A stretch of 64,000 nucleotides of DNA from Candidatus Omnitrophota bacterium (GCA_015233145.1 JADFYI010000001.1:79345-143344); one strand, 5' to 3'; positions 17,325-52,133 are shown, counted from the stretch's first letter. The notes: generated from the sequence alone by a model not told the origin. Translations and numbers: made by a program.

Positions 17325-17341
17325 TACGAATAATTTCACGA

Positions 17342-17372
17342 AGAGGGGCTGGGCAGCCAGCCCCTCTTTTGG
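17342..17372 (+). terminator. Rho-independent terminator/attenuator after pilin copy 2
   Basis: AGAGGGGCTGG-GCAG-CCAGCCCCTCT + TTT. The stem is identical to copy 1 and the loop differs by 1 nt. Confidence 0.7.
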
Positions 17373-17394
17373 GTTAAAAGAAGCAGGGATTTTT

Positions 17395-17814: not shown

Positions 17815-17827
17815 AGGGTGGGTGCGT

Positions 17828-18238
17828 ATGACAAAAAAAGGATTTTCATTGGCAGAGGTTATGGTAGTATTGGTGACTGTAGGCATTATTGCGGCTTACG
17901 GGATCCCGAACTTTGGGAAGGCTATGACCCGTGCCCAGGCGAGGAGTGCTATCAGCAATCTTCAGCTTATTTATTCGGCGCAGCAGTTATATTTTGCACG
18001 GCAGGGAGTTTATGTTGCTGAAGCGACTACTGCGGCTATTAATGGGATGCTGGGGAATAATTCCTTGAATATCGTGCAAACCGGAGGAACAACATATAGT
18101 TGCCAGATTGCGGCAGCACCCGCAACTTGCACTGCTGCTAACGCGGCATTTAATGTGGTGGTTACGCTTACAATTGCTCTTGCGGATAATAATGTTAATC
18201 CTGTGTGTACGAATGTTACTGCGGGCAGTTGCCCGTAA
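17828..18238 (+). CDS. Prepilin-type minor pilin, copy 2
   Basis: Nucleotide-identical to 14364-14774. Confidence 0.8.
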   Translation: MTKKGFSLAEVMVVLVTVGIIAAYGIPNFGKAMTRAQARSAISNLQLIYSAQQLYFARQGVYVAEATTAAINGMLGNNSLNIVQTGGTTYSCQIAAAPATCTAANAAFNVVVTLTIALADNNVNPVCTNVTAGSCP

Positions 18239-18243
18239 TCGTT

Positions 18244-18624
18244 ATGATAAAAATTTCGCGTTGTGGGTTTTCTTTGCTTGAGGTTCTTGTGGCTGCGGTT
18301 ATTTTCGCGATCGCGGCTGTGGGTATTTTTGGCACTATATCAGCAGCGAGAACCCCGACAAGAGATTCCAATGCCAGGCTTGGTGCGGCCACGGACATGA
18401 AAAGGGTTTCCGATAAGATTCAAAGCCTGATTACGGCAGGCGCCTGGACTGCGGGAGATCCTTTGCTCAGTCCTGGGCTTCATCAAATTACTAGTTGTGC
18501 TGCTGGTTGTTTATTTTCAGCCACGGAGCCTGCTCCTGCTGCGGGGTCAACATATACAATTACGACGGATGCTGCAGGGGGCGTTAATATCAATATTAAT
18601 ATCGCCTACAGTAGTAATTTTTAG
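18244..18624 (+). CDS. Prepilin-type minor pilin (PilV/GspI-like), copy 2
   Basis: Identical to 14780-15160 up to 18578. One amino-acid change near the C-terminus (IAYSSNF versus IAYTSNF). Confidence 0.75.
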   Translation: MIKISRCGFSLLEVLVAAVIFAIAAVGIFGTISAARTPTRDSNARLGAATDMKRVSDKIQSLITAGAWTAGDPLLSPGLHQITSCAAGCLFSATEPAPAAGSTYTITTDAAGGVNININIAYSSNF

Positions 18625-18654
18625 AATATTATTATAATTTTATATAGGTGAATT

Positions 18655-19278
18655 ATGGTGGCGCATTCTTGTAAAGGTATTACTCTTCTTGAGCTTCTGG
18701 TTTCTCTTGTGGTTGTTGGTGTTGTGATGGCGGGGGTGACTGCCGCAGATCATGCCTTCCGCAGATTTGATCGTGAAAACACCCATGATTCAACGCTCTA
18801 TATACGCGCCATGGCTCTGGCGGAAATGATTCGAGTGGATGCCAGTCTTGCAGTGGGTTGGGCAACAAGCCCTGGCGTTCAAATTGATACCACTGCTAAT
18901 AATTTTTTATGTTTTCGGCAAGATAATAATCAAGATGGGGTCATTGACAACAATCCAGGAACAGTCGCGCCTTATATTGGAGTCAGAGATTCCTGGAAAT
19001 GCTATTCCAAGCCAGGAGCTGCGGCAGCGAATGTTAATGTTTACAAATGTTCAAGAACCATCCCTGCAGGCGCAGGTGCTTGCACCGCTGCTGATCAATA
19101 TGTGGGAAAAATGGCTTGGAATGTATTTGCCACTGCGCCAAATCCACCGACGTTTGCCGGAAATCAATTTATATTTACCGTTATTGACAGAGATGATCCT
19201 ACGCTAGCTAAAAGCATATCCAATCCTGAGGTTAAAATTACTATTAATGTCAATCCTGTTGGCCATTCTGCTTCTTGA
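18655..19278 (+). CDS. Prepilin-type minor pilin (PilW/GspJ-like), copy 2 (diverged)
   Basis: MVAHSCKG|ITLLELLVSLVVVGVVMAGV. 207 aa versus 210 aa for copy 1, with many substitutions spread along the protein. Confidence 0.7.
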   Translation: MVAHSCKGITLLELLVSLVVVGVVMAGVTAADHAFRRFDRENTHDSTLYIRAMALAEMIRVDASLAVGWATSPGVQIDTTANNFLCFRQDNNQDGVIDNNPGTVAPYIGVRDSWKCYSKPGAAAANVNVYKCSRTIPAGAGACTAADQYVGKMAWNVFATAPNPPTFAGNQFIFTVIDRDDPTLAKSISNPEVKITINVNPVGHSAS

Positions 19279-40491: not shown

Positions 40492-41928
40492 ATGGAATTT
40501 GAAACAGTCATAGGGCTTGAAGTCCACCTTCAGTTGAATACGGAAACCAAGATTTTCTGCGGTTGCCGCAACCATCAGTTTGGCTCTGAGCCTAACACCC
40601 ATGTTTGCCCGGTGTGCCTGGGGTTACCCGGATCGTTGCCGGTTTTAAACCGCAAGGTTCTTTTAAGCGGCATCAAGGTGGGGCTGGCCTTAGGGTGTGA
40701 GATCAATACTTTTGTGAAGTTTGACAGAAAGAATTATTACTATCCTGATCTTCCCAAAGGGTATCAGATTTCCCAATTTGATTTCCCGATTGCGAAGAAA
40801 GGTTTCTTAAATATCAAGGTGGACGACGGAGAAAAGCGCATCGGCATTACCCGGGCGCATCTCGAAGAAGATGCGGGAAAGCTTATTCATGACGACGAAT
40901 TGAACGCCTCGCTTGTGGATTATAACCGCACAGGAACGCCCCTTGTCGAGATTGTTTCCGAGCCGGACATGCGTTCGGCCCAGGAAGCGTACGATTATTT
41001 GACAGCGTTAAAATTGACCCTGACTTATCTTGGCGTTTCCGATTGCGATATGGAAAAGGGCAGTTTGCGCTGTGATGCCAATGTTTCGATTCGTCCCGCA
41101 GGCCAGGCCGCGCTTGGCACAAAGACAGAATTAAAGAACATGAACTCTTTCAGCGCTGTCAAGCGCGCGATTGAGTATGAGGTTGACCGTCAGACGAGGA
41201 TTGTGATTTCCGGCGGGAAAGTTGTGCAGGAAACTCTTTTATGGGACGAGGCCAAAGGGACAACTCATACAATGCGCAGTAAAGAAGAGGCGCATGATTA
41301 CCGGTATTTCCCTGAACCTGACCTTGTGCCGTTTACCTTAACAGATTCTGACATTAATGCTGTTTTCAAGGAACTGCCTGAGCTGCCGTATGTTAAACTC
41401 TTTCGTTTCAAAAAACAGTACGGGCTTAACGATTATGATGCGTTTATTTTGATTTCTGACCGTTCAATTGCAGATTTCTTTGAAAAATGTGCTGTTTTAT
41501 ATTCTGATGCTAAGAAAATTGCGAACTGGCTTAATGGCCCTTTGATGAAAGAATTGAATGGCCGTAAGAAAAGTTTTTCACAACTGTCGCTTTCCTCAGA
41601 GGAGATGACAGGTTTAATACGCAAGGTAGAAGAAGGGGTTGTCAGCAATTTGGTCGGCAAAGACATCCTGACCACTCTTTTAGATACAGCTAAAAGTGTC
41701 AATGCTATTATTGAAGAACAAGGCCTGGCCCAGGTTTCCGATGATGCCGCGTTGATAAGGGTTGTTGATGAGGTGATGGCTGCGAATCCCAAAGCCATTG
41801 CGGAAATTAAATCCGGAAAAACATCGGCCATGGGTTTTTTGGTTGGCCAGGCCATGAAAAAGATGAACGGAAAAGCTAATCCCAAGAAATTGGGGGAAAT
41901 ACTGAAGGGGAGATTTGAAAATGTTTAA
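40492..41928 (+). CDS. gatB: Asp/Glu-tRNA(Asn/Gln) amidotransferase subunit B
   Basis: ATG 40492 gives MEFETVIGLEVHLQLNTETKIFCGC, the canonical GatB N-terminus. C-terminal YqeY-like tail. Confidence 0.95.
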   Translation: MEFETVIGLEVHLQLNTETKIFCGCRNHQFGSEPNTHVCPVCLGLPGSLPVLNRKVLLSGIKVGLALGCEINTFVKFDRKNYYYPDLPKGYQISQFDFPIAKKGFLNIKVDDGEKRIGITRAHLEEDAGKLIHDDELNASLVDYNRTGTPLVEIVSEPDMRSAQEAYDYLTALKLTLTYLGVSDCDMEKGSLRCDANVSIRPAGQAALGTKTELKNMNSFSAVKRAIEYEVDRQTRIVISGGKVVQETLLWDEAKGTTHTMRSKEEAHDYRYFPEPDLVPFTLTDSDINAVFKELPELPYVKLFRFKKQYGLNDYDAFILISDRSIADFFEKCAVLYSDAKKIANWLNGPLMKELNGRKKSFSQLSLSSEEMTGLIRKVEEGVVSNLVGKDILTTLLDTAKSVNAIIEEQGLAQVSDDAALIRVVDEVMAANPKAIAEIKSGKTSAMGFLVGQAMKKMNGKANPKKLGEILKGRFENV

Positions 41929-43354
41929 AAAAGTTTTGGCTCTTGTTGCCGTTGTTGCAGGAATTGTTTTCTTTGCCAACCTGGCTGTTTCCCAGTCGGA
42001 GAAAATTCCGGCGAAGTCGTCTGCCGGTTCATTGGAAACACCGCTTCAGAATTCTACGGTTGTCACGAATGCTGAGGCCGTAAAAAAGAATGATGACCCC
42101 AAGGCCAATGACCTTTATGCCCAGGTTGAGCTTTTTAGTTACGCCTTGACCACGATCCAGTCGGAATATGTGGAGCAAAAAACTCCCAAAGACCTTATTT
42201 ACGGGGCCCTGACCGGCATGCTTGATTCTTTGGATCCGCACAGCCAGTTTCTTGCTCCTGAGGATTATGATGAATTGAAAACAGAAACCCAGGGCAAGTT
42301 CGGCGGCCTGGGCATCGAGATTTCTGTCCGCGACGGGCTTCTGACGATTGTGACGCCCATTGAAGATACCCCGGCATGGAAGGCCGGCCTTAAGTCCGGG
42401 GACCGCATTGTAAAGATTGAAAAGACTTTAACCCGGGATATGTCGCTCAATAATGCTGTTAAAAAACTGCGCGGCGACCCTGGAACAAAGGTTCATATTA
42501 CCATTCTGCGCGAGTCTGAAGGGAAAATCCAGGAATTCGAGATCACGCGTGAGATTATTCATGTTAAAGATGTGAAAGATCCCCATATTATAGAGGATGG
42601 GATTGCGTATCTCCGCTTTGTGGAATTCCGCGAAGATTCCTATGCGCAGGTTTATAAGAATTTAAAAAGTTTAAAAGAGCAGGGTGCGACCGCGCTTATC
42701 CTCGATGTCCGTAACAATCCCGGCGGACTTCTAAATGTGGCCATTAAAATCAGCGAGATGTTTTTACCCTCAGGCCAGGTCATTGTTTCCACAAAAGGCC
42801 GGCATCCTTCCCAGGACAGCGTCAGTATTTCCCATAACACTGAAAATTTATTTGCGGATTGGCCCATAGTTATTCTTATCAACGAAGGGAGCGCTTCAGG
42901 GAGCGAAATTCTGGCCGGAGCTTTAAAAGACAACAAGCGGGCCGTGACCCTGGGGGTTAAATCTTTTGGCAAGGGCTCTGTCCAGTCCGTGATCCCGCTG
43001 CCGGATGGTTCGGGTTTGCGTTTGACAACAGCCAAATATTTTACGCCTTCCGGTATTTGCATCCATGACATCGGCATTACGCCGGACATTGTGATTGAAC
43101 GGGTTTATCCGCCGGCCGAAGACGAGGAAAAGCCCAAAAACGGGAAAAAAGACCTCAAGGATTCCAAAAAGGTTTTTGAGGATATCGAGTTAAAAGAAAC
43201 CGCGAATCCCGATGAAGCCGAGAAAAAGAAAAAAGAGGATGAGCTTAAGAAACGCATGAGCGACGACAACCAGATTCAAAGCGCGATCAGTGTCATTAAA
43301 GGCATTCGCGTTTACAAGAAATTGCAGGCCTCAGATGCCGTTACAAAAAAATAA
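41921..43354 (+). CDS. ctpA: C-terminal processing (S41) peptidase with PDZ domain and Lys/Glu-rich tail
   Basis: Signal peptide MFKKVLALVAVVAGIVFFANLAVS, PDZ (GLKSGDRIVKIE), and S41 catalytic region (NEGSASGSEILAGALKD...GKGSVQ). Confidence 0.88.
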   Translation: MFKKVLALVAVVAGIVFFANLAVSQSEKIPAKSSAGSLETPLQNSTVVTNAEAVKKNDDPKANDLYAQVELFSYALTTIQSEYVEQKTPKDLIYGALTGMLDSLDPHSQFLAPEDYDELKTETQGKFGGLGIEISVRDGLLTIVTPIEDTPAWKAGLKSGDRIVKIEKTLTRDMSLNNAVKKLRGDPGTKVHITILRESEGKIQEFEITREIIHVKDVKDPHIIEDGIAYLRFVEFREDSYAQVYKNLKSLKEQGATALILDVRNNPGGLLNVAIKISEMFLPSGQVIVSTKGRHPSQDSVSISHNTENLFADWPIVILINEGSASGSEILAGALKDNKRAVTLGVKSFGKGSVQSVIPLPDGSGLRLTTAKYFTPSGICIHDIGITPDIVIERVYPPAEDEEKPKNGKKDLKDSKKVFEDIELKETANPDEAEKKKKEDELKKRMSDDNQIQSAISVIKGIRVYKKLQASDAVTKK

Positions 43355-43361: not shown

Positions 43362-44246
43362 ATGCCCTTCTGGGCCATGATTGTCTGGATTTTGGTGGCC
43401 TTGATGTGTATCGGCGGGTATTTCCTGCTTCAAAAAAAACATCCTCAACCTCCGGCGAAACCTTTAAAACAGGCAGGCAAGCTGCCCCTTAAAAAGGCCC
43501 CGCCGATTCCTGTTGGGCAGGTTTCCAAAAAAACTTACCCCAAGCCTGCAGGGGCTGTTTCTTATGGCAAGGCCGCCATTATCATTGATGACTGGGGTTA
43601 TAATCGCAGCCATTGCCAATATCTTGCCCAAATGCCTGTGCCGGTCGCGGTCGCGATTTTGCCCCATTTGCCGTATTCCAAAATCATTATTCAATGTGCC
43701 AAAGATAACGGGCAGGAGCCGATGCTGCATTTGCCTTTTGAGCCCCACAGCGCAAAAGAGGCTTTTGAAAAAGATTATGACATGACAACAGACATGTCAG
43801 ACGCTGAGGCCAGGGCCAAGGTGGTAAAAATCCTTAATGAAATGACAGGGGTTGTCGGGGTTAATAACCATACCGGGTCCAAGGGGACGGAAGATGAAGT
43901 TTTGGTTACCAATGTTTTAACGGAATTAAAACGCCGGGGGCTTTTTTTTGTGGACAGCATGACCTCCGACCGTTCGGTTTGCGGGATCGTGGCGCAAAGG
44001 CTTAAAATGCGCATCGGCCGGCGGGATATCTTTTTGGACAATCGCAACGAACGCGCCTATATTGAACGCCAGTTTGCCGATGCCATGCAGCTTGTCCGTC
44101 AGAATGGCCATGCCATTATTATCGGGCATGACCGGGCGTTGACGCTTGATGTTATTATTGAGCAGGCGCGTAAATATTCCCAGGAAGGGTATCAGTTCAT
44201 CACTGTTAAAGATTATATCAGGCAATATGAATATTCTGGGAATTGA
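43362..44246 (+). CDS. Divergent polysaccharide deacetylase family protein (YibQ-like)
   Basis: N-terminal TM MPFWAMIVWILVALMCIGGYF, then IIIDDWGYN, AILPHLPYS, HLPFEPH, NNHTGSKGT, FFVDSMTS and DIFLDN. The start (43335 or 43362) is uncertain. Confidence 0.75.
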   Translation: MPFWAMIVWILVALMCIGGYFLLQKKHPQPPAKPLKQAGKLPLKKAPPIPVGQVSKKTYPKPAGAVSYGKAAIIIDDWGYNRSHCQYLAQMPVPVAVAILPHLPYSKIIIQCAKDNGQEPMLHLPFEPHSAKEAFEKDYDMTTDMSDAEARAKVVKILNEMTGVVGVNNHTGSKGTEDEVLVTNVLTELKRRGLFFVDSMTSDRSVCGIVAQRLKMRIGRRDIFLDNRNERAYIERQFADAMQLVRQNGHAIIIGHDRALTLDVIIEQARKYSQEGYQFITVKDYIRQYEYSGN

Positions 44247-45210
44247 AACATCCTGTGACGAGACCTCTGCAAGTGTTGTCCGCGACGGGAGGCGGGTCCT
44301 CTCGAACGTTGTGGCCACGAGCCTTAAGGAACATCAGAAATTCGGCGGCATTATCCCTGAGATTGCCTCGCGAAGGCAGCTTGAGTTTATCAATATTGTG
44401 ACAAAAGAAGCGCTCGTAACAGCAGGCCTTACGCTCAAAGACATTGACGCTGTCGCGGTCACAACACACCCCGGGCTTATCGGGTCTCTTCTGGTGGGCA
44501 TTTCCTTTGCCAATTCATTGAGTTTTGCCTTAAACAAGCCTTTGATCAAGGTCAACCATATTCATGCCCATCTTTATGCCAATTGCCTTTCTGTTTTTCA
44601 AGGGAAGAACAACGGGGAGGGCGTCATTTTTAAAGAATCGTCTCTTCCTGCGGTAGGCCTGGTTGTTTCCGGCGGGCATTCGAGTTTGTTTTTTATTAAA
44701 GATTTCAGGAATATGCGCCTTATCGGGCAAACCCGTGATGACGCGGCTGGAGAGGCTTACGATAAAGTCGCGCGCATTTTGAATCTGGGTTATCCCGGCG
44801 GGCCTGTGATTGACAGGCTTTCGAAAAATGTTTCTGATAACGACATTCATTTCCCCTGCGCCATGCTTCCGGGAACCCGTGATTTCAGCTTTAGCGGTGT
44901 CAAAACAGCAGTGCTTTATTACACGCGTCAACATTCTGCGAAACCCGGATACTCCGTAGAGCGGGTGGCGCATGCTTTTCAGGAAAGTGTTGTCAAGGTT
45001 TTGACTGAGAAAAGCCTGGAGGTCGCGCGTAAAAAGAAGGTCAAAGCCCTTCTTGTTGGCGGGGGGGTTGCGGCCAATTCAGCCCTGCGTTCATCGTTGG
45101 AGGCGGAGGCCTTAAAATCAGGCATTAAGGTTTATTTTCCTGGAATGCCTTTGTGCATGGATAATGCGGCCATGGTTGCAGGCCTTGCCTATCATTATTA
45201 TAAAACCTAG
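44227..45210 (+). CDS. tsaD: tRNA N6-adenosine threonylcarbamoyltransferase
   Basis: ATG 44227 gives MNILGIETSCDETSASVV. HIHAHL metal site and GGVAANSALR. Confidence 0.93.
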   Translation: MNILGIETSCDETSASVVRDGRRVLSNVVATSLKEHQKFGGIIPEIASRRQLEFINIVTKEALVTAGLTLKDIDAVAVTTHPGLIGSLLVGISFANSLSFALNKPLIKVNHIHAHLYANCLSVFQGKNNGEGVIFKESSLPAVGLVVSGGHSSLFFIKDFRNMRLIGQTRDDAAGEAYDKVARILNLGYPGGPVIDRLSKNVSDNDIHFPCAMLPGTRDFSFSGVKTAVLYYTRQHSAKPGYSVERVAHAFQESVVKVLTEKSLEVARKKKVKALLVGGGVAANSALRSSLEAEALKSGIKVYFPGMPLCMDNAAMVAGLAYHYYKT

Positions 45211-45226
45211 AATTATCCCGGTTTTA

Positions 45227-45255
45227 TTGACTATCGCCCTTCAATCTGTTATAAA
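45227..45255 (+). promoter_or_regulatory. Putative sigma70-type promoter with extended -10 for the bactofilin-HTH operon
   Basis: TTGACT (45227-45232), 17 nt, TGtTATAAA (-10 at 45250-45255). Confidence 0.4.
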
Positions 45256-45331
45256 AAGCTTATAAGAGCCCCTGTTTTCTTTGGGAAAAATGCTGCAGGG
45301 AAAGTTCAGGATTGTTAAAGAGGAGAAGAAA

Positions 45332-45862
45332 ATGGTTTTCGGTGAGAAAAAACAAGTAAAGACTGAAAATCCCCATAAATCCATTGAAATTAACGCAGAG
45401 ATGCACGGCTCTCTGGCATTTAAAGATCCGGTAGACCTTAAAATCAACGGGATTTTTTCAGGCAGTCTGGATGTGAGGGGCACGCTTTCCATTGGTGTCA
45501 ATGCCGACGTGCAGGCAGACATTAACGGGGACAATGTTATTGTTGCCGGGAAAGTCAAAGGCAATATCCGTGTGACCAAAATGCTCACCTGCATGCCCAC
45601 GGCTGTTGTGAACGGGGATATTTATACTCCCAAGCTTAATATTGTTGAGGGCGCCATTTTTCAGGGGGCCTGCCATATGTCTGTTTCCGAAGTCAGCGAA
45701 TGGATGAATATCAAGGAATTGGCCTCTTATCTTGAGCTTGATGAGGCTGTGATTGGCGAACTGGTGAATACCGGAAAGATCCCTGTGGTCAGGGAAGGCG
45801 AAACGCTGAAGTTTGAACGCTCACAGATTGATCATTGGGCTGTTTCAGGAATTGTCAAATGA
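45332..45862 (+). CDS. Bactofilin-domain protein fused to a C-terminal excisionase/MerR-type HTH
   Basis: Strong SD (GAGGAG) before ATG 45332. Residues ~20-115 show the bactofilin beta-helix pattern (INGIFSGSLDVRGTLSIGVNADVQADINGDNVIVAGKVKGNIRV...VNGDIYTPKLNIVEGAIFQG). Residues 125-170, MNIKELASYLELDEAVIGELVNTGKIPVVREGETLKFERSQIDHW, are HTH_17-like. Confidence 0.7.
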   Translation: MVFGEKKQVKTENPHKSIEINAEMHGSLAFKDPVDLKINGIFSGSLDVRGTLSIGVNADVQADINGDNVIVAGKVKGNIRVTKMLTCMPTAVVNGDIYTPKLNIVEGAIFQGACHMSVSEVSEWMNIKELASYLELDEAVIGELVNTGKIPVVREGETLKFERSQIDHWAVSGIVK

Positions 45863-46164
45863 CCTTGAGTCCCTATGTTACAGTACGAGAAGCTGCACAG
45901 ATCCTTGGCATTGCCGAGGGGAAAATCATGTCTCTGGTTGAATCGCATAAGCTTCAGGCCTACAGAATAGCAGACCAATACTTGCGCCTTAAGCGCAAAG
46001 ACATTGAGATGCTCAAAAATTCCGGTGAAATTGTTTCAGAAAACGTTAAGTTTCCTTATACGGCCAGGGAAAGATTCCGTGATCTTTTGGCTTATAACGA
46101 TTTTTATATTGTATCGTTTCTCGTCATTGTTGTCCTGCTTGGGATTATTTTCTTCAGCAACTAA
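45859..46164 (+). CDS. Excisionase-type HTH protein with C-terminal transmembrane anchor
   Basis: ATGA overlap with the upstream gene. VTVREAAQILGIAEGKIMSLVESHKLQAYRIADQYLRLKRKDIEML is HTH_17-like. C-terminal TM FYIVSFLVIVVLLGIIFF. Confidence 0.65.
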   Translation: MTLSPYVTVREAAQILGIAEGKIMSLVESHKLQAYRIADQYLRLKRKDIEMLKNSGEIVSENVKFPYTARERFRDLLAYNDFYIVSFLVIVVLLGIIFFSN

Positions 46165-46181
46165 TCTCTTTTGAAATTCGC

Positions 46182-46210
46182 TTGCCAATTTTAATGCTTT
46201 ATCATAGAAT
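46182..46210 (+). promoter_or_regulatory. Putative promoter for the tRNA gene
   Basis: TTGCCA (46182-46187), 17 nt, TAGAAT (46205-46210), about 50 nt before the tRNA 5' end. Confidence 0.35.
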
Positions 46211-46260
46211 TGTGTCCTATTTTCGGCGGCAAAGTCCGGTTTCATTCCTTAAAAGATTTT

Positions 46261-46334
46261 GCCGAGGTAGCTCAGTTGGCTAGAGCAAGCGGTTCATACC
46301 CGCTAGGTCGAGAGTTCGAATCTCTCCCTCGGCA
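46261..46334 (+). tRNA. tRNA with anticodon CAT (elongator Met or lysidine-modified Ile2; not initiator-like)
   Basis: Manual cloverleaf: acceptor GCCGAGG/CCTCGGC, D arm GCTC-AGTTGGCTA-GAGC, anticodon arm AGCGG-TTCATAC-CCGCT (CAT at 46295-46297), variable loop AGGTC, T arm GAGAG-TTCGAAT-CTCTC, discriminator A. 74 nt, CCA not encoded. A G1-C72 pair and the absence of a GGG/CCC anticodon stem argue against fMet. Confidence 0.9.
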
Positions 46335-46564
46335 TTTTTTATTCCTTCTTCTTATCTTCCTCATTAACGAATAGATGTATCGAGCGCCTCTAGTGCCGTT
46401 GCATCAATTTGTTTATGAATTTCTCCGACACTTTAGTTTCGCGTTGACAACCACTGACATCTTTTTGCATTTTGTGCATTTGTATATTATACTTTTTCTG
46501 CATGTTTCCTATTACACACCTAATGAACAACATAAAGACAAAATTTTTATAATCGGAGAGTTCT

Positions 46565-49243
46565 ATGATTAAGAAAGTTTTTAGTTTATTTCTTCTCGGC
46601 AACTTTTTTCTGTCGTCAGTGTTGCCAAACAGTGCTTATGCTCAGGCATTGACCCTGCCGACGCCAGGAACCATGTTGGCAACCAGCGAAGCCTACGTGC
46701 CCCTCATTTTCAAAGGCTTGCAAGTCCAGCCCAAAAACCCCATGCTTTTCGATTTCATTGTGGACACGGGTGATACTGGCTTAAAAGCAGGCAAAGATGA
46801 TGCCGCCATTCGCACAGAGTCCCAGAAGCTCATTAAGTATTTTTTGGCCTCCCTGACACTCCCTGAACAAGATCAGTGGGTGAATCTATCTCCCTATGAA
46901 CATGACCGCATGATGCCTGTCGAACTTGAAAAGACTGAACTTGGCCGGGATATGCTGGCACAGGATTATGTGTTAAAGCAGGTCACAGCGTCTCTTATTT
47001 ACCCGGAAAAGGATTTGGGCAAACAGTTCTGGTCAAAGGTCTATTCTCAGGTGCAAGAAAAATTTGGCAATGCCGAAATCCCAATGGATACCTTTAATAA
47101 GGTTTGGGTGGTTGCTGATAAGGCTGATGTGTACGTGAATAATAACACTGCTTTTGTCGTTGGAAGTCATCTGAAGGTCATGCTTGAGTCCGACTATTTA
47201 GCCGCTCAAAAGGCTGATACAACGACTGCTACAGGCTCACAGGAATACACCAAGCAGATTGTCCGTGAAATCATTCTTCCTGCGTTAGAGAACGAAGTCA
47301 ACACAGGTAAAAACTTTGCAAATCTCAGGCAGATTTTTCACGCCATGATTCTGGCGACGTGGTACAAAAAGAACCTCAAGGAAGCACTGCTCAATCAGGT
47401 CTATTCAAATAAGGGAAAAACCAATGGCGTTACTCTTGGGGCCACCAATGTTGATCCTCAGGCCATTTATAGCAAATATGTCGAAGCCTACAAGAAGGGT
47501 GCTTTTAACCTCATCAAGGAAGATGTTCTTGCCAATGGTGAAACAGTGCCTCGCAAGTACTTCTCCGGCGGTGAGGCACCGAATCTCGGAGCAGATAAGG
47601 CCATGCGACTTGTAGGAAAAGAAGCCGCTGGCAATTTTTCCATGAAAGACGCTGTGCGAGTTCAGGCAGGTGTCGAAAAAAGCGTGCCTACAGAAGAATC
47701 CCTTGGAACAGTCGCCGTCAAAGATGCGGCTATGAAGTACCCGTCAGTATTAAATAAAGACATGGGATTTGACAAATCTCGCCAGAAAATTATGGATGCA
47801 TTTAACAACGCAATTAATCAGGCTGGCCCCAAGTCAGAAGATAAAAGAGATTGGGATGGCCGAATTCAGGCAATGAACTTTGACGTCACGGACCTTTTGA
47901 ACAAAGAGTTAAACACTTACATTGCTCGGCTTCCTGATTCTGAACAGTTGAACCAGTTCGTTATCGGTCTATTGACCGATCTTTTTAACTTGCATAATCA
48001 AAGGGAAAAAGAGGGTGATGCTGAGGGTGCCCATTTCGTCTACGGCTTTCTTCACACCCTCAGTGCACGTATTGTCGGCGTTTACACAGGCTCCGATGGA
48101 GAAATTAGAGTTTCGGCATGGGTAGGCGAAGGCGGAATAAAAGAAAGGGTTGCTTGGCCTTTGTTTTCTCAGATTATTGCTAGCGACATTATCAAGGATA
48201 AGAGAAAAATTAATACCTACATGGTTTCGAGAGACCAGCTTGCTGAAACCATGGCAAGAGATATTACGGGTCTTGGATTAACTTTAAAGGCAGACGTGGA
48301 CTTTATTCAAGTGTGGTTTACTAATGACTCACAGCCACAGGACATGATTTCTATTAAAGCTTGGGATAAAGGCTTTCCGGAATCAGTAGAGAGTTTAATG
48401 AAGCTGATTAGTTTGACTGAAGATAAAACAGGAAAGAAAGCATCGACGGTTTGGCTTAATTTTTCAACTTCTGGAAGTGGAAAAGCAATGGAAGCCAACA
48501 GAAGTAATACTGTTCGTTTGACTTATAATATCGCTGATGCGGCCATGAAGACTTTTTCCCAAATGTGGACTCTTTTTTCAGTCCAAAGGCAAATTCAAAA
48601 TCGCCACGATGATAAAAATCCGTTAGCTTGGAAAAGTGTTTATGGGAAAGAAAATCATTTTTTTGACACCGTTGAGAATGCTTCAGAAATTGAATTGAAG
48701 AATGCAATACAAAGGCTCATGGGACAGAAGAATTTTGCCTTGCCTTTCTTAGACACAATTGTAAAGGCATCTGACGCTGAAGTGCTGGGTACCTTTATCA
48801 CCGCCATGCAACAGTCCCAACAATTTGCATGGGCTGCTGGCTTTGTTGAAGACATTGCAAATGAAAAAATGAAACAAAAGAGTGCGGTTGAGGCGGTTGC
48901 TGGCAGTAAGTTTGACCCCAAGACATTCGAACCCTATGATGAAATAACAGCAATTCTATGGCGTCTTTTTTCACTATGGCACCAAAAAGAGGCATCTGAA
49001 GACGGCACAAAGGATGCCGCTCAAGCAACACTGCCTCCCGGTGGTATTGACATGAACGCCCAGAAAATGCAGATGAATGAAAAGGGTCAGAAGATTGACA
49101 TAACCTTTGACCCGGCAACGGTTGAGCAGTTCAAGCGGGGCGACTTTACAGGATTAAAGCCTGTGATTTTTAACATAACGCCGATTGCCAATCCCTTGCT
49201 TTTGTTGGGATTAAATCAGGAAGCCGCTGCTCAGAATTCATAA
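46565..49243 (+). CDS. Large exported hypothetical protein (892 aa), no family assignable by eye
   Basis: Signal peptide MIKKVFSLFLLGNFFLSSVLPNSAYA. Long uninterrupted ORF with an SD-like GGAGAG upstream and a strong terminator downstream. Confidence 0.8.
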   Translation: MIKKVFSLFLLGNFFLSSVLPNSAYAQALTLPTPGTMLATSEAYVPLIFKGLQVQPKNPMLFDFIVDTGDTGLKAGKDDAAIRTESQKLIKYFLASLTLPEQDQWVNLSPYEHDRMMPVELEKTELGRDMLAQDYVLKQVTASLIYPEKDLGKQFWSKVYSQVQEKFGNAEIPMDTFNKVWVVADKADVYVNNNTAFVVGSHLKVMLESDYLAAQKADTTTATGSQEYTKQIVREIILPALENEVNTGKNFANLRQIFHAMILATWYKKNLKEALLNQVYSNKGKTNGVTLGATNVDPQAIYSKYVEAYKKGAFNLIKEDVLANGETVPRKYFSGGEAPNLGADKAMRLVGKEAAGNFSMKDAVRVQAGVEKSVPTEESLGTVAVKDAAMKYPSVLNKDMGFDKSRQKIMDAFNNAINQAGPKSEDKRDWDGRIQAMNFDVTDLLNKELNTYIARLPDSEQLNQFVIGLLTDLFNLHNQREKEGDAEGAHFVYGFLHTLSARIVGVYTGSDGEIRVSAWVGEGGIKERVAWPLFSQIIASDIIKDKRKINTYMVSRDQLAETMARDITGLGLTLKADVDFIQVWFTNDSQPQDMISIKAWDKGFPESVESLMKLISLTEDKTGKKASTVWLNFSTSGSGKAMEANRSNTVRLTYNIADAAMKTFSQMWTLFSVQRQIQNRHDDKNPLAWKSVYGKENHFFDTVENASEIELKNAIQRLMGQKNFALPFLDTIVKASDAEVLGTFITAMQQSQQFAWAAGFVEDIANEKMKQKSAVEAVAGSKFDPKTFEPYDEITAILWRLFSLWHQKEASEDGTKDAAQATLPPGGIDMNAQKMQMNEKGQKIDITFDPATVEQFKRGDFTGLKPVIFNITPIANPLLLLGLNQEAAAQNS

Positions 49244-49265
49244 AGAAAAAAGTTGAAGCCAGTGA

Positions 49266-49305
49266 ATGCCCGTTATTCAATGTGTTGAGTAGCGGGCATT
49301 TTTTG
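49266..49305 (+). terminator. Rho-independent terminator after the 892-aa ORF
   Basis: ATGCCCGTTATTCAA-TGTG-TTGAGTAGCGGGCAT, a 15-bp stem with two G-U pairs, followed by TTTTTT. Confidence 0.75.
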
Positions 49306-49528
49306 TTTGGAAGAGAGGAGTGCATTTAGCGGTTATCGCTGTTATATTAAGGGCTTTACAGATTCTAAAGTTCAGGGATAATAGTCGAATTCTTTTAAAA
49401 GTGTCTTACAAGCCACGTTGCTTCCTTAACAAGGAAAGTTTTTTAAGCTTTCCTTTTTTATGACTTTTTTTCAGCTTCTTCAGGTAAAATAAAGCCGTAT
49501 TTTTTAATCCCTTGGGAAGGTCCTTGAT

Positions 49529-50539
49529 ATGAAGAAATTAAGAGTCGGGGTTGTGGGCATGGGGTATTGGGGCCCCAATATTGTCCGTAATTTTAACCTT
49601 CTTGACAATGCCTGTGTCGCCGCTGCCTGTGACCTGGATGAAGCGTCAGCACGTAAGGCCTTAAAAATTTCTAAAGATATTTTGTTGGAAACAGATTACC
49701 GGAAAATTACTGATGCTCTTGATATTGATATTGTTTGTGTTGTGACTCCGCTGGCCAGCCATTATGAAATTGCCAAACGCGCGCTCGAGCAGGGCAAGCA
49801 TGTTTTTGTCGAGAAACCGTTTACCGCCACATCTCGCGAGGCCGAAGAACTGATCACGCTGGCTCAGAAAAAAAGCCTTTTGATCATGGTTGACCACACC
49901 ATGCTTTTTACCGGTGCGGTGCGTAAAATGAAAGACATTGTCAAAAGCGGTATTTTGGGCAAGCTTTTATATTATGATTCCATGCGCGTTAACCTCGGGC
50001 TTTTTCAGCGTGATGTGAATGTGATATGGGATTTGGCTCCGCATGATTTTTCCATAGCAGATTATCTTTTGGATGTTTCTCCGGTTTCTGTTTCAGCTCA
50101 TGGGATCGGGCATTTTAATGGGGCTATTGAGGATGTGGCCTATGTCGTCCTTTATTTTAATGATAATATTATCGCCCACTGCAACTTTAACTGGGTGTCT
50201 CCCATTAAAGTCAGGCATGTCCTTCTCGCCGGAGAGAATAAAAGCATTTTATGGGATGATTTGGAACCGGATGAAAAAGTGAAAATTTATGACAGGGGTG
50301 TTGAGGTCACGGGCCGCGAGGATATCTACAAGCTTTTGGTGCAGTACCGTTTTGGTGATATGCTGGTGCCCAAGCTCGATAATAAAGAAGCTCTGGCTTT
50401 TGAGGCGGAATATTTTATCAACAGCATTTTAAATAATACGCCTGTTATTAATGATGGAGGCGCGGGCTTAAGGATTGTCAGGCTGCTGGAAGCGTGCGAC
50501 CTTTCTTTAAAGAAACATGGCGAGCTCGTTAAAGTCTGA
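49529..50539 (+). CDS. Gfo/Idh/MocA family NAD(P)-dependent oxidoreductase
   Basis: 336 aa. Rossmann N-terminus LRVGVVGMGYWGPN, and EKPFT, typical of this family. Confidence 0.8.
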   Translation: MKKLRVGVVGMGYWGPNIVRNFNLLDNACVAAACDLDEASARKALKISKDILLETDYRKITDALDIDIVCVVTPLASHYEIAKRALEQGKHVFVEKPFTATSREAEELITLAQKKSLLIMVDHTMLFTGAVRKMKDIVKSGILGKLLYYDSMRVNLGLFQRDVNVIWDLAPHDFSIADYLLDVSPVSVSAHGIGHFNGAIEDVAYVVLYFNDNIIAHCNFNWVSPIKVRHVLLAGENKSILWDDLEPDEKVKIYDRGVEVTGREDIYKLLVQYRFGDMLVPKLDNKEALAFEAEYFINSILNNTPVINDGGAGLRIVRLLEACDLSLKKHGELVKV

Positions 50540-50571
50540 GTTGAAATACCCTAAAAACGCAGGAATGTTTG

Positions 50572-51102
50572 ATGAGAAAACTTTTTTTTATGATTGCGCT
50601 GTTGACAGGAGCTTACGCTTCTTTGGCGCATGCCCAACTAAATCCTCTTCTTGAGTCAACATCCAGGTATCAGAATGTCCGGGTTGAAAGGGTCATTTCT
50701 GCGGATACGATTTTGATCAATGGCAATGAAAAGGTGATGTTAATAGGGATAAAAGCACCCAATCCTCCCAAGAAAGAATACGCCCAGCGCGATAGCCATG
50801 GCTTTATTGTCGAGGATGCGCCAACCCCGGAAACTCCGGTTGAGGTCGCATCGTATCGCTTCGCCGCTGACCTTTTGGAAGGGAAAACCGTGTCTTTGCA
50901 GTTTGATTCCCAGCGGCGCAATGAAGACAATGTTTTAGAGGCATACGTCTTTTTGCCGGATAAGAGAATGGCTAATATTGAAATATTGCGCAATGGTTTT
51001 GCTGATTTGAAGATACGCCCTCCGAACATGCTTTATGTTGATAAATTTCGTTCCGCCTATCAGGAAGCGCGCCGGGAAATGCGCGGCGTCATCGGTCAAT
51101 AA
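50572..51102 (+). CDS. Secreted staphylococcal-nuclease-like (SNase/thermonuclease) domain protein
   Basis: Signal peptide MRKLFFMIALLTGAYASLAHA. VERVISADTILINGNEKVMLIGIKAP...EAYVFLPDKRMANIEILRNGFA resembles the SNase OB-fold. Confidence 0.55.
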   Translation: MRKLFFMIALLTGAYASLAHAQLNPLLESTSRYQNVRVERVISADTILINGNEKVMLIGIKAPNPPKKEYAQRDSHGFIVEDAPTPETPVEVASYRFAADLLEGKTVSLQFDSQRRNEDNVLEAYVFLPDKRMANIEILRNGFADLKIRPPNMLYVDKFRSAYQEARREMRGVIGQ

Positions 51103-51128
51103 AAACAGTTCGTAAATATTTTATACAT

Positions 51129-52133
51129 ATGGATTTTATCCCTCAGATTCACCAGTCAATTGTCCGGCAGAAACTTGTTGCGAAAAGTTGCAGGCTTGTT
51201 GTTGCCGTATCCGGCGGCATGGATTCCATGGCCCTTCTTTATGCCCTTTATTCTTTAAAGCATGAACTGGGCGTTGAATTAATTGTGGCTCATTATGACC
51301 ACAAGCTTCGCCGTTCGTCGGGCCTGGACCGTCGTTTTGTGCAGGAAATTTCTTGTTTTTTGGGTTTGCGTTGTGTTGTCGGGATCAATTTAACAAAGCC
51401 GCCCAAAACCGGCTCAATCGAAGAATACGCCCGTAAAAAACGTTATGCGTTCTTGATCAAAACAGCCCGGGATTCAAAAGCCGATTTTGTTGCGCTGGCG
51501 CATCATGAAGATGATCTTGCGGAAACCGTGCTCTTAAGGGTCTTGCGTGGAACAGGCCTCAGGGGATTGCGAAGCATGGCTCCTAAAAGCCTCATGGAGG
51601 GCGTCACTTTGATCAGGCCGTTTTTGGACATCTCCAGGCAAGACATCGAGCGTTTTGTAAAAGGCCGAAAGATCCCTTTTGTTATGGATTCCACGAATTT
51701 CGACACATCGTTTGACCGTAACAAGCTGCGCCTTAAGGTTATTCCGTTTATTGAAAAAGAATTCTTCAGGTCTTGCCAATCGGCCCTGGCCGGGCTCGCG
51801 CGAAGTTCCATTGTTGATTATTCTTTTCTTGAGTCTGAGGCGGAAAAAGCGTTTTTGCGCGTGGCCTCAGAGAGAAAAAAGAGCGTTTCCATTAACCTTA
51901 AGGATTTCTTTTCTTTGCATCAGGCCATTCAGAGGATGGTTTTAAGGCGGGCCTTTGAAAAAGTGCGCGGGAACCTGCGCGCCCTTGGGTTAAAGAATAT
52001 GGCAGAAGTGGAGGATTTTTTGGCCCAGCCGTCAAGCACTGGCAGGCTGGAGCTTCCTCAAGGACTCGTCGTTATCAAAAAAGGCCGCGGTGTTGTCGTT
52101 AGGGTTAACAAATCTTTTAAATTACAGGCTTGA
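51129..52133 (+). CDS. tilS: tRNA(Ile)-lysidine synthase
   Basis: 334 aa. PP-loop VAVSGGMDSMAL, and HHEDDLAETVLLRVLRGTG. Confidence 0.88.
   Translation: MDFIPQIHQSIVRQKLVAKSCRLVVAVSGGMDSMALLYALYSLKHELGVELIVAHYDHKLRRSSGLDRRFVQEISCFLGLRCVVGINLTKPPKTGSIEEYARKKRYAFLIKTARDSKADFVALAHHEDDLAETVLLRVLRGTGLRGLRSMAPKSLMEGVTLIRPFLDISRQDIERFVKGRKIPFVMDSTNFDTSFDRNKLRLKVIPFIEKEFFRSCQSALAGLARSSIVDYSFLESEAEKAFLRVASERKKSVSINLKDFFSLHQAIQRMVLRRAFEKVRGNLRALGLKNMAEVEDFLAQPSSTGRLELPQGLVVIKKGRGVVVRVNKSFKLQA

What the first reader, a model, noticed from the sequence alone, without database searches (positions are those of the whole stretch)
46335..49305. 892-aa orphan exported protein as a stand-alone unit immediately downstream of tRNA(CAT)
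After the tRNA comes a 230-nt AT-rich spacer with promoter-like hexamers (TTGCAT 46465-46470, 17 nt, TATACT 46488-46493) and a direct repeat TGCATTT-tg-TGCATTT. A single 892-aa ORF with a clear signal peptide follows, ended by a strong terminator. I cannot assign any enzymatic motif. Notable internal features are listed here. The N-terminal LTLPTPGTM...FKGLQVQPKNPMLFDFIVDTGD segment and the C-terminal PPGGIDMN...FTGLKPVIFNITPIANPLLLLGL segment feel familiar from uncharacterised proteins of uncultivated lineages, a recollection I cannot verify. A short motif DAA(M/Q) recurs three times (near nt 47720, 48530 and 49010) as if marking module boundaries. The tRNA-adjacent, monocistronic layout is typical of accessory or horizontally acquired cargo.
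Basis: partly seen in the sequence, partly recalled or inferred. Interest (0 to 1): 0.6.

Follow-up and report, generated by a model that had tools for sequence, protein, structure and literature searches.

The report
Omnitrophota export frame with swappable cargo
This gene is not an orphan: it belongs to a very large, unnamed protein family of Omnitrophota bacteria in which a conserved signal peptide, N-terminal domain and short C-terminal module frame an interchangeable middle, which in many relatives is a complete cytoplasmic-type enzyme or regulator joined in at a short D-x-A-M motif.

Summary
The 892-aa ORF (46565-49243), the upstream tRNA(CAT), the AT-rich spacer motifs, the terminator and the DAA(M/Q) motifs are all present as described. 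"Orphan" is wrong. The protein is 100% identical to a hypothetical protein of a Candidatus Omnitrophica MAG. Its first ~336 aa define a family of about 7,900 clusters at 50% identity, with several, often tandem, copies per genome and no Pfam, NCBIfam, PDB or Foldseek match. Members share a signal peptide, a ~310-aa N-domain (55-65% identical between paralogs) and a ~60-aa C-terminal module (GGIDLN...FDPAM...PVIxxITPI). The middle is unrelated in 98.7% of member pairs and often holds whole cytoplasmic-type domains (PGK, enolase, adenylate kinase, PGM, PPDK, REC, HTH). Composition is native, the flanks are housekeeping, and no integrase is present, so horizontal acquisition is not supported. Best reading: a Sec-exported frame-plus-cassette carrier, possibly processed at D-x-A-M. 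The mechanism is inferred, not shown.

The parts
46260..46335 (+). tRNA with CAU anticodon (context only, not part of the unit). It is elongator-type (G1:C72). Met versus Ile2 was not resolved.
   Evidence: ARAGORN; Rfam RF00005, 71 bits.
46464..46493 (+). Promoter-like -35/-10 pair (TTTGCA, 18 nt, TATACT), overlapping the TGCATTT-tg-TGCATTT repeat. A second candidate lies at 46524-46553.
   Evidence: 9/12 and 10/12 matches; region only about twice shuffles; sequence.
46556..46561 (+). Shine-Dalgarno-like GGAGAG, 3 nt upstream of the ATG.
   Evidence: Read from the sequence.
46565..49243 (+). The complete 892-aa CDS. It is 100% identical to MAG Candidatus Omnitrophica HQL16_00680.
46565..46642 (+). 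Signal-peptide-like N-terminus (aa 1-26: MIKK, hydrophobic core, PNSAYA|Q).
   Evidence: 137 of 146 family members have a positive n-region plus hydrophobic core; P at -8 and A at -6/-4/-3 before the mature LxLPxPG.
46643..47572 (+). Conserved family N-domain (aa 27-336), alpha/beta with no known fold match. Motifs: LxLPxPG, FDFIVDTG, WVNLSPYE, TELGRDMLAQDYxLKQ, FNKVW, GSHLKVML, RKYFSGG.
   Evidence: about 55-65 invariant columns; 7,908 representatives; AF2 pLDDT 85-96 in the cores; no Pfam, PDB or Foldseek hit.
47594..47734 (+). Post-N-domain linker (aa 344-390). It holds two D-x-A-M junction motifs (D344KAM, D387AAM) bracketing a confidently predicted beta-strand at aa 363-372.
   Evidence: strand pLDDT 83; motif positions have pLDDT below 50.
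47762..48094 (+). Middle module 1 (aa ~400-510), a predicted four-helix bundle with only weak relatives in other members (P0191, P0121).
   Evidence: pLDDT 66-82; Foldseek found only generic helical-bundle noise.
48209..48535 (+). Middle module 2 (aa 549-657), a ~108-aa mobile domain. It occurs twice in P0126 (61-64% identity) and twice in P0007 (32-35%).
   Evidence: The AF2 model is low-confidence here.
48536..49012 (+). Middle module 3 (aa 658-816), helical. It begins with the D658AAM junction, is ~30% identical to the module before the C-module of P0075, and has a sub-threshold SUKH-2/Syd hit.
   Evidence: Syd E=0.006, 16.7 bits against a cutoff of 25.
49013..49024 (+). Degenerate junction motif D817AAQ, directly preceding the C-module.
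   Evidence: Family consensus is D-x-A-M, then 5-8 residues, then GGIDLN.
49040..49216 (+). Conserved family C-module (aa 826-884): GGIDMN...FDPAT...GDFTGLKPVIFNITPIANPLLLLGL.
   Evidence: AF2 pLDDT 75-92. It is never found independently of the N-domain except as fragments of split genes.
49264..49307 (+). Intrinsic terminator: 17-pair stem, 4-nt loop, T-run.

Best explanation
The gene encodes one member of a very large, undescribed Omnitrophota-specific family built as a conserved frame around an exchangeable cassette. The frame is a Sec-type signal peptide, a ~310-aa N-domain of unmatched alpha/beta fold, a short conserved linker strand and a ~60-aa beta-rich C-terminal module. The cassette region between them holds one or more unrelated modules, each introduced by the short motif D-x-A-M in a flexible linker. 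In this protein there are three uncharacterised modules: a four-helix bundle (aa 400-510), a ~108-aa mobile domain (aa 549-657) and a helical module (aa 658-816). Shown here: family membership, the frame/cassette architecture, the specificity of the junction motif, native composition and a housekeeping neighbourhood. Inferred: the frame is an export, targeting or carrier device. It takes the polypeptide across the inner membrane by Sec and then directs it to a conserved partner (a secretion, attachment or delivery apparatus). That would explain why N and C stay 55-65% and 40-60% identical while the cargo is free to be anything. Also inferred: D-x-A-M is a protein-level recognition site, most likely for proteolytic processing, that separates modules so that each starts with Met like the free-standing protein it derives from. 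Most speculative: because much of the family's cargo is cytoplasmic-type (ATP- or NAD-dependent enzymes, REC, HTH), the destination may be the cytoplasm of a host or prey cell of these predicted epibiotic predators or parasites.
For: Family and frame. There are over 3,888 homologs covering only aa 1-336 and 826-884, and 7,908 representative clusters with the N-domain always at the N-terminus. At least 587 confirmed copies occur in Omnitrophota reference MAGs, at least 4-7 per genome among the best 80 loci alone, and 21 of 81 loci are tandem arrays. N and C identities co-vary (r=0.50), while the middles are related in only 132 of 10,296 pairs and in 33 of 897 pairs with N-domains at least 70% identical. 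Novel domain. There is no Pfam, NCBIfam, PHROG or PADLOC match, no PDB sequence or profile hit, and no Foldseek hit in PDB or BFVD despite pLDDT of 85-96 in the cores. Export. N-termini are signal-peptide-like in 137 of 146 members, and the query has no further TM-like segment. Cargo. 74 Pfam families occur in 65 middles, each in 1-2 members. Full-length PGK (profile 1-379 of 379, 281 bits), ADK, PPDK, PGM and REC are present. Junction motif. D.AM density is 1.66 per 1000 aa in family proteins against 0.07 in non-family proteins of the same loci, and 0 in 16,356 aa of this window's other ORFs. It clusters 0-60 aa after the N-domain and 0-30 aa before GGIDLN. Its Met lies 3-27 aa before Pfam profile position 1 of PGK, REC, enolase and PPDK, and a second motif lies 7 aa after the domain end in P0044 and P0101. 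All four sites in the query fall in regions with pLDDT below 50. It is not a DNA-level site, since synonymous and flanking positions carry almost no information. It is not an internal start, since SD-like sequences precede 7% of these Mets against 46% of true starts. Context. Omnitrophota are predicted predators or parasites (PMC10066038). Their giant proteins carry the same cytoplasmic-type Pfams behind signal peptides (10.1101/2023.11.21.568195; 10.64898/2026.06.07.730766).
Against: No experiment or proteomic datum shows export, cleavage or delivery. The signal peptide was judged by heuristics, not by SignalP or DeepTMHMM. No conserved neighbouring gene (protease, secretin, transporter) was found next to family members, so the postulated partner is unidentified. 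D-x-A-M often sits at predicted helix N-termini (D658, D817, FDPAT850), so it could be a structural capping motif rather than a cleavage site. Some members with enzyme cargo (P0077, P0114 PGM; P0038) lack linker D.AM motifs. Cytoplasmic-type cargo behind a Sec signal is a topological paradox that the delivery idea addresses only by speculation. The middle of this particular protein has no assignable function.
Confidence: 0.55

Rival explanations
1. Uncleaved surface-display or envelope scaffold. After Sec export the N-domain, perhaps together with the C-module, anchors or polymerises in the envelope or extracellular coat. The variable middle is displayed, as in flagellin (conserved termini, variable exposed centre) or SLH-anchored exoproteins. 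D-x-A-M is then only a helix-capping linker signature.
For: N and C co-diverge as a unit. Both are confidently folded while the linkers are flexible. D-x-A-M sits at predicted helix starts. HEAT and TPR repeats are the commonest cargo. Omnitrophota are reported to have an extracellular 'coat' and giant surface proteins.
Against: It does not explain why the Met of D-x-A-M coincides with the native N-termini of captured enzymes. It does not explain why ATP- or NAD-dependent enzymes, REC, GGDEF or HTH domains would be displayed outside the cell. No similarity to known anchors (SLH, LysM, OmpA, dockerin) was found.
Confidence: 0.25
2. Cytoplasmic or inner-membrane-tethered scaffold. The N-terminal hydrophobic stretch is not a cleaved export signal. 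The frame tethers or organises cytoplasmic enzymes and regulators inside the cell, for example on the membrane or on a polymer.
For: The cargo repertoire is overwhelmingly cytoplasmic-type. The 2026 preprint argues that nearly half of Omnitrophota long proteins are TM-anchored with cytoplasmic domains.
Against: A positive n-region, a short (~16 aa) h-region and a conserved P...A-x-A|Q site are typical of cleaved Sec signals, and an N-in orientation places everything downstream outside. The query has no 19-aa window reaching TM hydrophobicity.
Confidence: 0.13
3. One reading: an orphan accessory gene acquired horizontally and inserted at a tRNA gene.
For: It lies immediately downstream of a tRNA. 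It is monocistronic. A 13-nt direct repeat GGCATTTTTT[A/G]TT occurs at 46331 and 49295. The middle region has lower GC3 (0.39) than the flanks. Two HTH_17 (Xis-like) domain genes lie upstream.
Against: The family is huge, lineage-specific and multi-copy. Overall codon usage is native, and the N and C parts have GC3 of 0.51-0.53. There is no integrase or transposase, and the flanks are housekeeping. The repeat is just GGCA plus a terminator T-run. Family loci show no tRNA enrichment.
Confidence: 0.02
4. The N-domain is a self-processing (retropepsin-like aspartic) protease that cuts its own polyprotein at D-x-A-M.
For: FIVDTG (D67 conserved in at least 90% of members) is followed 60 residues later by LGRDML at the start of a helix, which mimics the DTG...GRD/N spacing of retropepsins.
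Against: hhalign against HIV-1 protease gives a probability of 0.7%. No aspartic-protease Pfam family matches even at E<=10. No Foldseek hit to any of the many retropepsin structures, despite pLDDT above 90 in this region. The predicted topology has an 18-residue helix where retropepsins have the flap strands.
Confidence: 0.03

Closest known systems
Omnitrophota giant or very long multi-enzyme proteins ('Archaeovorin' and 'Dockerin-type', West-Roberts et al. 2023 preprint; 'multi-enzyme metabolic clusters', 2026 preprint 10.64898/2026.06.07.730766)
   Same: Same phylum. Signal-peptide-bearing polypeptides tile the same set of cytoplasmic-type Pfams (PGM, REC, HATPase_c, HD, methyltransferase, PPDK_N, GGDEF, HEAT/TPR). 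Proteolytic processing into smaller units was suggested there too.
   Different: Those reports concern proteins of 10,000 aa or more and, in the sections I searched and read, describe no shared N-domain, C-module or junction motif. This family is 0.5-3.4 kaa with a precisely conserved frame. Whether the giants carry the same frame was not testable here.
T9SS cargo proteins of Bacteroidota (N-terminal Sec signal plus conserved C-terminal sorting domain)
   Same: A Sec signal peptide, arbitrary functional domains and a conserved ~60-90-aa beta-rich C-terminal module shared by many paralogs per genome.
   Different: There is no sequence match to T9SS CTD models. T9SS cargo has no conserved 310-aa N-domain and no D-x-A-M junction, and its cargo is typically extracytoplasmic-type enzymes. 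The phylum also differs.
Flagellin and other 'conserved termini, hypervariable centre' proteins (including flagellins with enzymatic inserts); from my own knowledge
   Same: The N- and C-terminal parts are conserved and co-evolve, while the centre is replaced freely and may be an enzyme.
   Different: Flagellin has no Sec signal, its termini are coiled-coil helices, and no homology was detected. Polymerisation of this frame is untested.
Polymorphic toxin/effector systems (CdiA, Rhs, MafB, LXG) and viral or bacterial polyproteins
   Same: A conserved trafficking part carries exchangeable cargo through recombination. Tandem paralog arrays occur. Short junction motifs demarcate cargo (for example VENN in CdiA; from my own knowledge).
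   Different: In those systems the variable part is C-terminal and toxic, with an adjacent immunity gene. Here the C-terminus is conserved, the cargo is housekeeping-type, and no immunity-like partner recurs.
C-terminal processing by S41 (CtpA/Prc) proteases, for example D1 precursor cleavage after D-L-A (from my own knowledge)
   Same: The junction D-x-A|M (often D-L-A-M) resembles the D-L-A|A site of pre-D1. Many family members end in non-polar tails (LAKV, LAGV, LLGL) of the kind bound by PDZ domains. An S41 Ctp gene lies 3 kb upstream.
   Different: This is purely a resemblance. No evidence links Ctp to this family, and Ctp is a common housekeeping gene.

Membership tests
Undescribed Omnitrophota 'frame + cassette' family (defined here) | N-terminal signal-peptide-like segment followed by the mature motif LxLPxPG | tested here: met
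   Query has MIKK, a hydrophobic core, AYA|QALTLPTPG; 137 of 146 members are similar.
Undescribed Omnitrophota 'frame + cassette' family (defined here) | ~310-aa N-domain with invariant motifs (FDFIVDTG, WVNLSPYE, TELGRDMLAQDY, FNKVW, RKYFSGG) | tested here: met
   Every motif is present in the query's translation. The alignments, built on the query as reference row, give 55-65 invariant columns, and N-domain hits reach E down to 1e-172.
Undescribed Omnitrophota 'frame + cassette' family (defined here) | ~60-aa C-module GGIDLN...FDPAM...GDFxGxxPVIxxITPI within ~90 aa of the C-terminus | tested here: met
   Query aa 826-884 aligns to it; G826, G827 and I828 are invariant.
Undescribed Omnitrophota 'frame + cassette' family (defined here) | D-x-A-M junction motifs after the N-domain, between modules and before the C-module | tested here: met
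   Query has D344KAM, D387AAM, D658AAM and D817AAQ; family enrichment is about 24-fold.
Undescribed Omnitrophota 'frame + cassette' family (defined here) | Omnitrophota host genome | tested here: met
   100% identical to the MAG Candidatus Omnitrophica protein HQL16_00680.
T9SS C-terminal-domain cargo | C-terminal domain matching T9SS CTD models (Pfam or NCBIfam/TIGRFAM) | tested here: not met
   No hit on the whole protein at E<=1 in Pfam or NCBIfam, and none on the isolated C-module in Pfam at E<=10.
Two-partner secretion TpsA / autotransporter | TPS beta-helix domain or C-terminal beta-barrel translocator | tested here: not met
   No Pfam hit. The AF2 N-domain is mixed alpha/beta with long helices, and there is no barrel.
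tRNA-associated genomic island | Integrase or recombinase adjacent to the tRNA | tested here: not met
   Pfam scan of 10 flanking genes finds only housekeeping families.
tRNA-associated genomic island | Direct repeat of the tRNA 3' end at the distal boundary | tested here: inconclusive
   Only a 13-nt GGCA+T-run match exists (46331 and 49295, 12 of 13), coinciding with a terminator tail.
tRNA-associated genomic island | Atypical composition or codon usage | tested here: not met
   GC3 is 0.447 against 0.494 +/- 0.049. Codon distance is 0.187, within 0.113-0.234. Only the middle is somewhat AT-richer, with GC3 0.39.
Retropepsin-like aspartic proteases (clan AA) | Detectable sequence-profile or fold similarity around DTG...GRD/N | tested here: not met
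   hhalign probability 0.7%; no Pfam match; no Foldseek match.
Polymorphic toxin systems | Variable C-terminal toxin domain plus a downstream immunity gene | tested here: not met
   The C-terminus is the conserved part. No recurrent small downstream partner occurs in 81 loci. The downstream gene here is a GFO/IDH/MocA oxidoreductase lying beyond a terminator.
Omnitrophota giant multi-enzyme proteins | Length of 10,000 aa or more with many tiled Pfam domains | tested here: not met
   The query is 892 aa with no Pfam domain. The family reaches at least 3,372 aa in the loci examined.
Omnitrophota giant multi-enzyme proteins | The same N-domain, C-module and D-x-A-M frame in the giants | not testable with these tools

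The most novel reading that the evidence does not exclude
Omnitrophota possess a phylum-wide, previously unrecognised protein-delivery chassis. Whole cytoplasmic genes are captured in-frame, start Met included, between a Sec-signal-bearing N-domain and a C-terminal module. The fusions are exported as polyproteins, cut at D-x-A|M junctions, and the released enzymes or regulators act outside the producer, most plausibly inside the host or prey cell of these epibiotic nanobacteria. The giant 'multi-enzyme' proteins would be the extreme multi-cassette form of the same system.
Probability: 0.2. Interest if true: 0.9.

Novelty: new variant of a known kind. Interest (0 to 1): 0.7.

Why it matters
Omnitrophota are ubiquitous, uncultivated nanobacteria predicted to be predators or parasites, and their biology is known almost only from genomes. 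This finding defines a family of thousands of proteins, several per genome. It has a novel-fold N-domain, a C-terminal module and a four-residue junction grammar, none of which is in Pfam or NCBIfam. It offers a concrete handle (an HMM of the frame plus the D-x-A-M motif) on an open puzzle already noted for the phylum's giant proteins: why glycolytic enzymes, kinases, response regulators and DNA-binding domains sit behind signal peptides. If the frame is an export or delivery device with a processing site, the question becomes directly testable with existing metaproteomes and simple reporter fusions. It would also supply a natural modular system for exporting arbitrary cargo.

Tried and rejected
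1. Known-family assignment. Pfam, NCBIfam, PHROGs, PADLOC, PDB sequence and profile searches, and Foldseek against PDB and BFVD all returned nothing significant.
2. Retropepsin-like protease in the N-domain (DTG...GRD with retroviral spacing). Rejected by hhalign, Pfam and Foldseek.
3. D-x-A-M as a DNA recombination or cassette site. Rejected: synonymous and flanking nucleotides carry almost no information.
4. D-x-A-M Met as an internal translation start giving a cytoplasmic copy of the cargo. Not supported: SD-like motifs precede 7% of these Mets, against 13% of other internal Mets and 46% of true starts.
5. Stand-alone C-modules. The short hits are fragments of split or frameshifted family genes.
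6. Conserved partner gene next to family members. None recurs in 81 loci.
7. Synteny of this locus in relatives. The closest homolog P0003 sits in an unrelated neighbourhood, and no locus is syntenic. The exact protein is not in the contig index.
8. Search with the middle region alone. It returned nothing, not even the self-match, so it is uninformative. Module relatives were instead found by local BLAST.
9. Riboswitch or leader RNA in the 230-nt spacer. None in Rfam.
10. Literature. No paper in the held library describes this frame.
11. N-C docking. It could not be examined because model coordinates are not exposed.


Full report
OBSERVATION. A tRNA with anticodon CAT lies at 46260-46335. A ~230-nt AT-rich spacer follows, with TTTGCA-18-TATACT at 46464-46493 and the TGCATTT-tg-TGCATTT repeat. 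Next come a GGAGAG ribosome-binding site and an 892-aa ORF at 46565-49243, ending at a 17-pair stem-loop terminator at 49264-49301. Promoter-like matches in the region are only about twice the shuffle expectation, so they are weak evidence. The N-terminus (MIKK, a 16-residue hydrophobic core, PNSAYA|Q) looks like a cleavable Sec signal, and no other TM-like segment is present. The DAA(M/Q) motifs are at aa 387, 658 and 817, and a fourth (D344KAM) was missed.

NOT AN ORPHAN. The protein is 100% identical to hypothetical protein HQL16_00680 of a Candidatus Omnitrophica MAG. It has more than 3,888 database homologs, a count limited by the candidate cap. The homologs align only to aa 1-336 (120 of 120 top hits) and aa ~826-884 (about 100 of 120), not to the middle. 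An exhaustive phmmer search with the first 340 aa finds 7,908 representative clusters at 50% identity, 6,058 of them at E<=1e-30. The domain is always at the N-terminus, in proteins of 432-2,887 aa among the best 150. The best 80 are all in MAGs labelled Omnitrophota/Omnitrophica, apart from some labelled 'uncultured Planctomycetales' and one labelled Ca. Elulimicrobium. Individual MAGs contribute at least 4-7 copies to that top-80 subset alone, and 21 of 81 loci hold 2-4 tandem copies within 10 kb. This window has no second copy.

ANATOMY OF THE FAMILY. The N-domain is unusually conserved for paralogs: 55-65% identity and 55-65 invariant columns, including LxLPxPG, FDFIVDTG, WVNLSPYE, TELGRDMLAQDYxLKQ, FNKVW, GSHLKVML and RKYFSGG. 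The C-module consensus is D-x-A-M-(5-8)-GGIDLNAxNMxLDVxxxGxGxxxxFDPAMxAxFxxGDFxGVxPVIxxITPIxxxxPLLGL. It is often followed by an acidic stretch and a non-polar end such as LAKV, LAGV or LAKG. N- and C-module identities co-vary (Pearson 0.50). The middles show any similarity in only 132 of 10,296 pairs, and in only 33 of 897 pairs whose N-domains are at least 70% identical. The closest N-domain relatives of the query (P0002 and P0006, 82-85%) carry an adenylate kinase where the query has something else. C-modules were never found on their own; short stand-alone hits are fragments of split genes. This is a conserved frame around an exchangeable cassette.

CARGO. Among 65 middles taken from genome loci, 74 different Pfam families were detected, each in one or two members. 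They include HEAT, TPR, REC, HATPase_c, UDPGP, NAPRTase, PPDK_N, HD, PGM, PP2C, several HTH families and GT2. Precomputed annotations add adenylate kinase, PGK, enolase, Glu/Ala dehydrogenase, GGDEF, sigma-54 AAA+, DnaJ, methyltransferases and epimerases. These are complete domains; for example PGK matches profile positions 1-379 of 379 at 281 bits. The query's own middle has no Pfam match, but it is not wholly unique. Residues 549-657 are a ~108-aa mobile domain present twice in P0126 (61-64% identity) and twice in P0007. Residues 658-816 resemble (30%) the module preceding the C-module of P0075. Residues 400-548 are weakly similar to P0191. A sub-threshold SUKH-2/Syd hit (E=0.006) in aa 679-722 is only a lead.

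THE D-x-A-M JUNCTION.
- Density: D.AM occurs at 1.66-2.4 per 1000 aa in family proteins. The composition expectation is 0.13, non-family proteins of the same loci have 0.07, and 16,356 aa of this window's other ORFs have none.
- Position: it concentrates 0-60 aa after the end of the N-domain and 0-30 aa before GGIDLN, with further copies scattered through multi-module middles.
- Cargo boundaries: where the cargo is recognisable, the motif's Met sits where the free-standing enzyme would start. It lies 7 aa before Pfam position 1 of PGK (P0095), 9 aa and 16 aa before REC (P0044, P0012), about 3 aa before the projected start of enolase (P0087), and 27 aa before PPDK_N (P0101). In P0044 and P0101 a second motif lies 7 aa after the last domain, just before the C-module. 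There are exceptions: the PGM members and P0038 have no linker D.AM motif.
- Level of constraint: it acts on the protein, not the DNA, because synonymous and flanking nucleotides carry almost no information.
- Not a start codon: SD-like sequences precede 7% of these Mets, against 46% of true starts.
- Flexibility: in the AF2 model all four query motifs fall in segments with pLDDT below 50.

STRUCTURE. AF2 with family alignments gives a confident N-domain: pLDDT 85-96 in the cores, and pTM 0.68 for the isolated domain. It is alpha/beta, with a hairpin-rich sheet and long helices. The model also shows a confident isolated strand at aa 363-372 between the first two junction motifs, a moderately confident four-helix bundle at aa 402-509, and a confident C-module (strands at 827-829, 836-841 and 864-874; helix at 850-858). 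Foldseek against PDB and BFVD found nothing below E=0.1 for either model.

NOT A tRNA ISLAND. GC3 of the gene (0.447) is within one SD of the window's genes (0.494 +/- 0.049). The N and C parts are at 0.51-0.53 and only the middle is lower, at 0.39. Codon-usage distance (0.187) is inside the native range. The flanks are an S41 Ctp protease, a polysaccharide deacetylase, TsaD, a bactofilin-HTH_17 protein and a small HTH_17 protein upstream, then GFO/IDH/MocA, TilS, a MORN protein and FtsH downstream. No integrase or transposase is present. The only att-like repeat is GGCA plus a T-run at two terminator-like sites. The closest homolog lies in an unrelated neighbourhood, no fetched locus is syntenic, and family loci are not enriched in tRNAs.

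HOW IT MOST LIKELY WORKS. Shown: membership of a huge lineage-specific family, the frame/cassette architecture, the junction motif and its placement, a signal-peptide-like N-terminus, and native genomic status. Inferred:
- The strongly conserved frame serves a common step for all members. After Sec export the N-domain and C-module would interact with a conserved partner for secretion, attachment or delivery.
- D-x-A-M is a recognition site, most simply for a protease, that separates modules so that each begins with Met.
- Because so much cargo is of cytoplasmic type, the destination may be another cell's cytoplasm. This fits the predicted predatory or parasitic lifestyle of Omnitrophota (PMC10066038) and reported transfer of predator molecules into prey (PMC13153191).
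No partner gene is linked to the family, and no experimental evidence exists, so I give the overall explanation 0.55. Most of that weight rests on the architecture and export parts, and much less on cleavage and delivery. The rivals are an uncleaved display scaffold (0.25), a cytoplasmic tether (0.13), a self-processing protease (0.03) and horizontally acquired orphan cargo (0.02).

COMPARISON WITH WHAT IS KNOWN. The nearest described phenomenon is the giant, signal-peptide-bearing 'multi-enzyme' proteins of the same phylum, which tile the same Pfam families. In the sections I searched and read, those reports define no shared N-domain, C-module or junction motif. By function the frame resembles T9SS cargo (Sec signal plus C-terminal sorting domain), flagellin-type conserved termini with a variable centre, and polymorphic effector systems with junction motifs. 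Every membership test run against such families failed (see the membership table). I therefore class it as a new variant of a known kind, namely modular exported carrier proteins and Omnitrophota multi-enzyme exoproteins. A 0.2 chance remains that it is a new cargo-delivery and polyprotein system.

VERDICT. 'Orphan' and 'horizontally acquired' are wrong. Interest 0.7.

Noticed in passing
window 13218-15802 and 16687-19257: A 2.6-kb direct duplication at 90.9% identity, with copies about 3.5 kb apart and several duplicated ORFs.
   Followed up: no
window 44146-52133: The tRNA(CAU) lies between tsaD (t6A37 synthesis) and tilS (lysidine-34 synthesis on tRNA-Ile2). The tRNA is elongator-type (G1:C72) and could be tRNA-Ile2 rather than tRNA-Met. 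ARAGORN calls it Met from the anticodon alone.
   Followed up: partly
window 45281-46164: A bactofilin domain is fused to an HTH_17 (Xis/MerR-like) domain. An overlapping small ORF follows, with a second HTH_17 domain and a hydrophobic C-terminal tail. This is an unusual pair directly upstream of the tRNA.
   Followed up: no
window 46331-46343 and 49295-49307: A 13-nt direct repeat GGCATTTTTT[A/G]TT at the tRNA 3' end and at the tail of the gene's terminator. It is most likely two T-run terminators rather than att sites.
   Followed up: partly
window 41915-43354: An S41 C-terminal processing protease (Ctp, PDZ-containing) lies 3 kb upstream. The family's D-L-A|M-type junction and non-polar C-terminal tails resemble S41 substrates (the pre-D1 D-L-A|A site, from memory). 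This is probably coincidence, but it is a testable candidate protease.
   Followed up: no
window 47573-49039 (aa 337-825): The cassette region has clearly lower GC3 (0.39) than the frame (0.51-0.53) and the genome (0.49). That is consistent with a different history or weaker constraint on the cargo.
   Followed up: no
P0217, P0223, P0225, P0240: A second sequence subtype of the C-module exists: GGIDLNTSNGMQWKVSKDGxGVEMxIDPAMIxRIRREGIxSLSPVIFRITPIxxIWPLVGLQAP. P0150 carries two C-module starts, at aa 2282 and 2537.
   Followed up: no
L011 (DYOU01000031.1): One family member (59% N-domain identity) lies in a MAG labelled Candidatus Elulimicrobium, which NCBI places in the Patescibacteria group. 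This is either a labelling or binning issue or the family reaches beyond Omnitrophota.
   Followed up: partly
L001 2146-4920 (-) and 5477-8452 (+): The closest homolog, P0003, sits head-to-head with a second, divergent family member (46% N-domain identity), next to AbiEii and RNA-ligase genes.
   Followed up: no
tool behaviour: The large-database search with the middle region returned no hit at all, not even the identical database protein P0001. That negative result should not be taken as evidence that the middle is unique.
   Followed up: partly
window 46643-47572 (aa 332-336 and 826-827): Invariant Gly-Gly pairs close the N-domain (RKYFSGG) and open the C-module (GGIDLN). C39 double-glycine peptidase domains have been reported in Omnitrophota giant proteins. 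A GG-dependent processing step is conceivable but untested.
   Followed up: no
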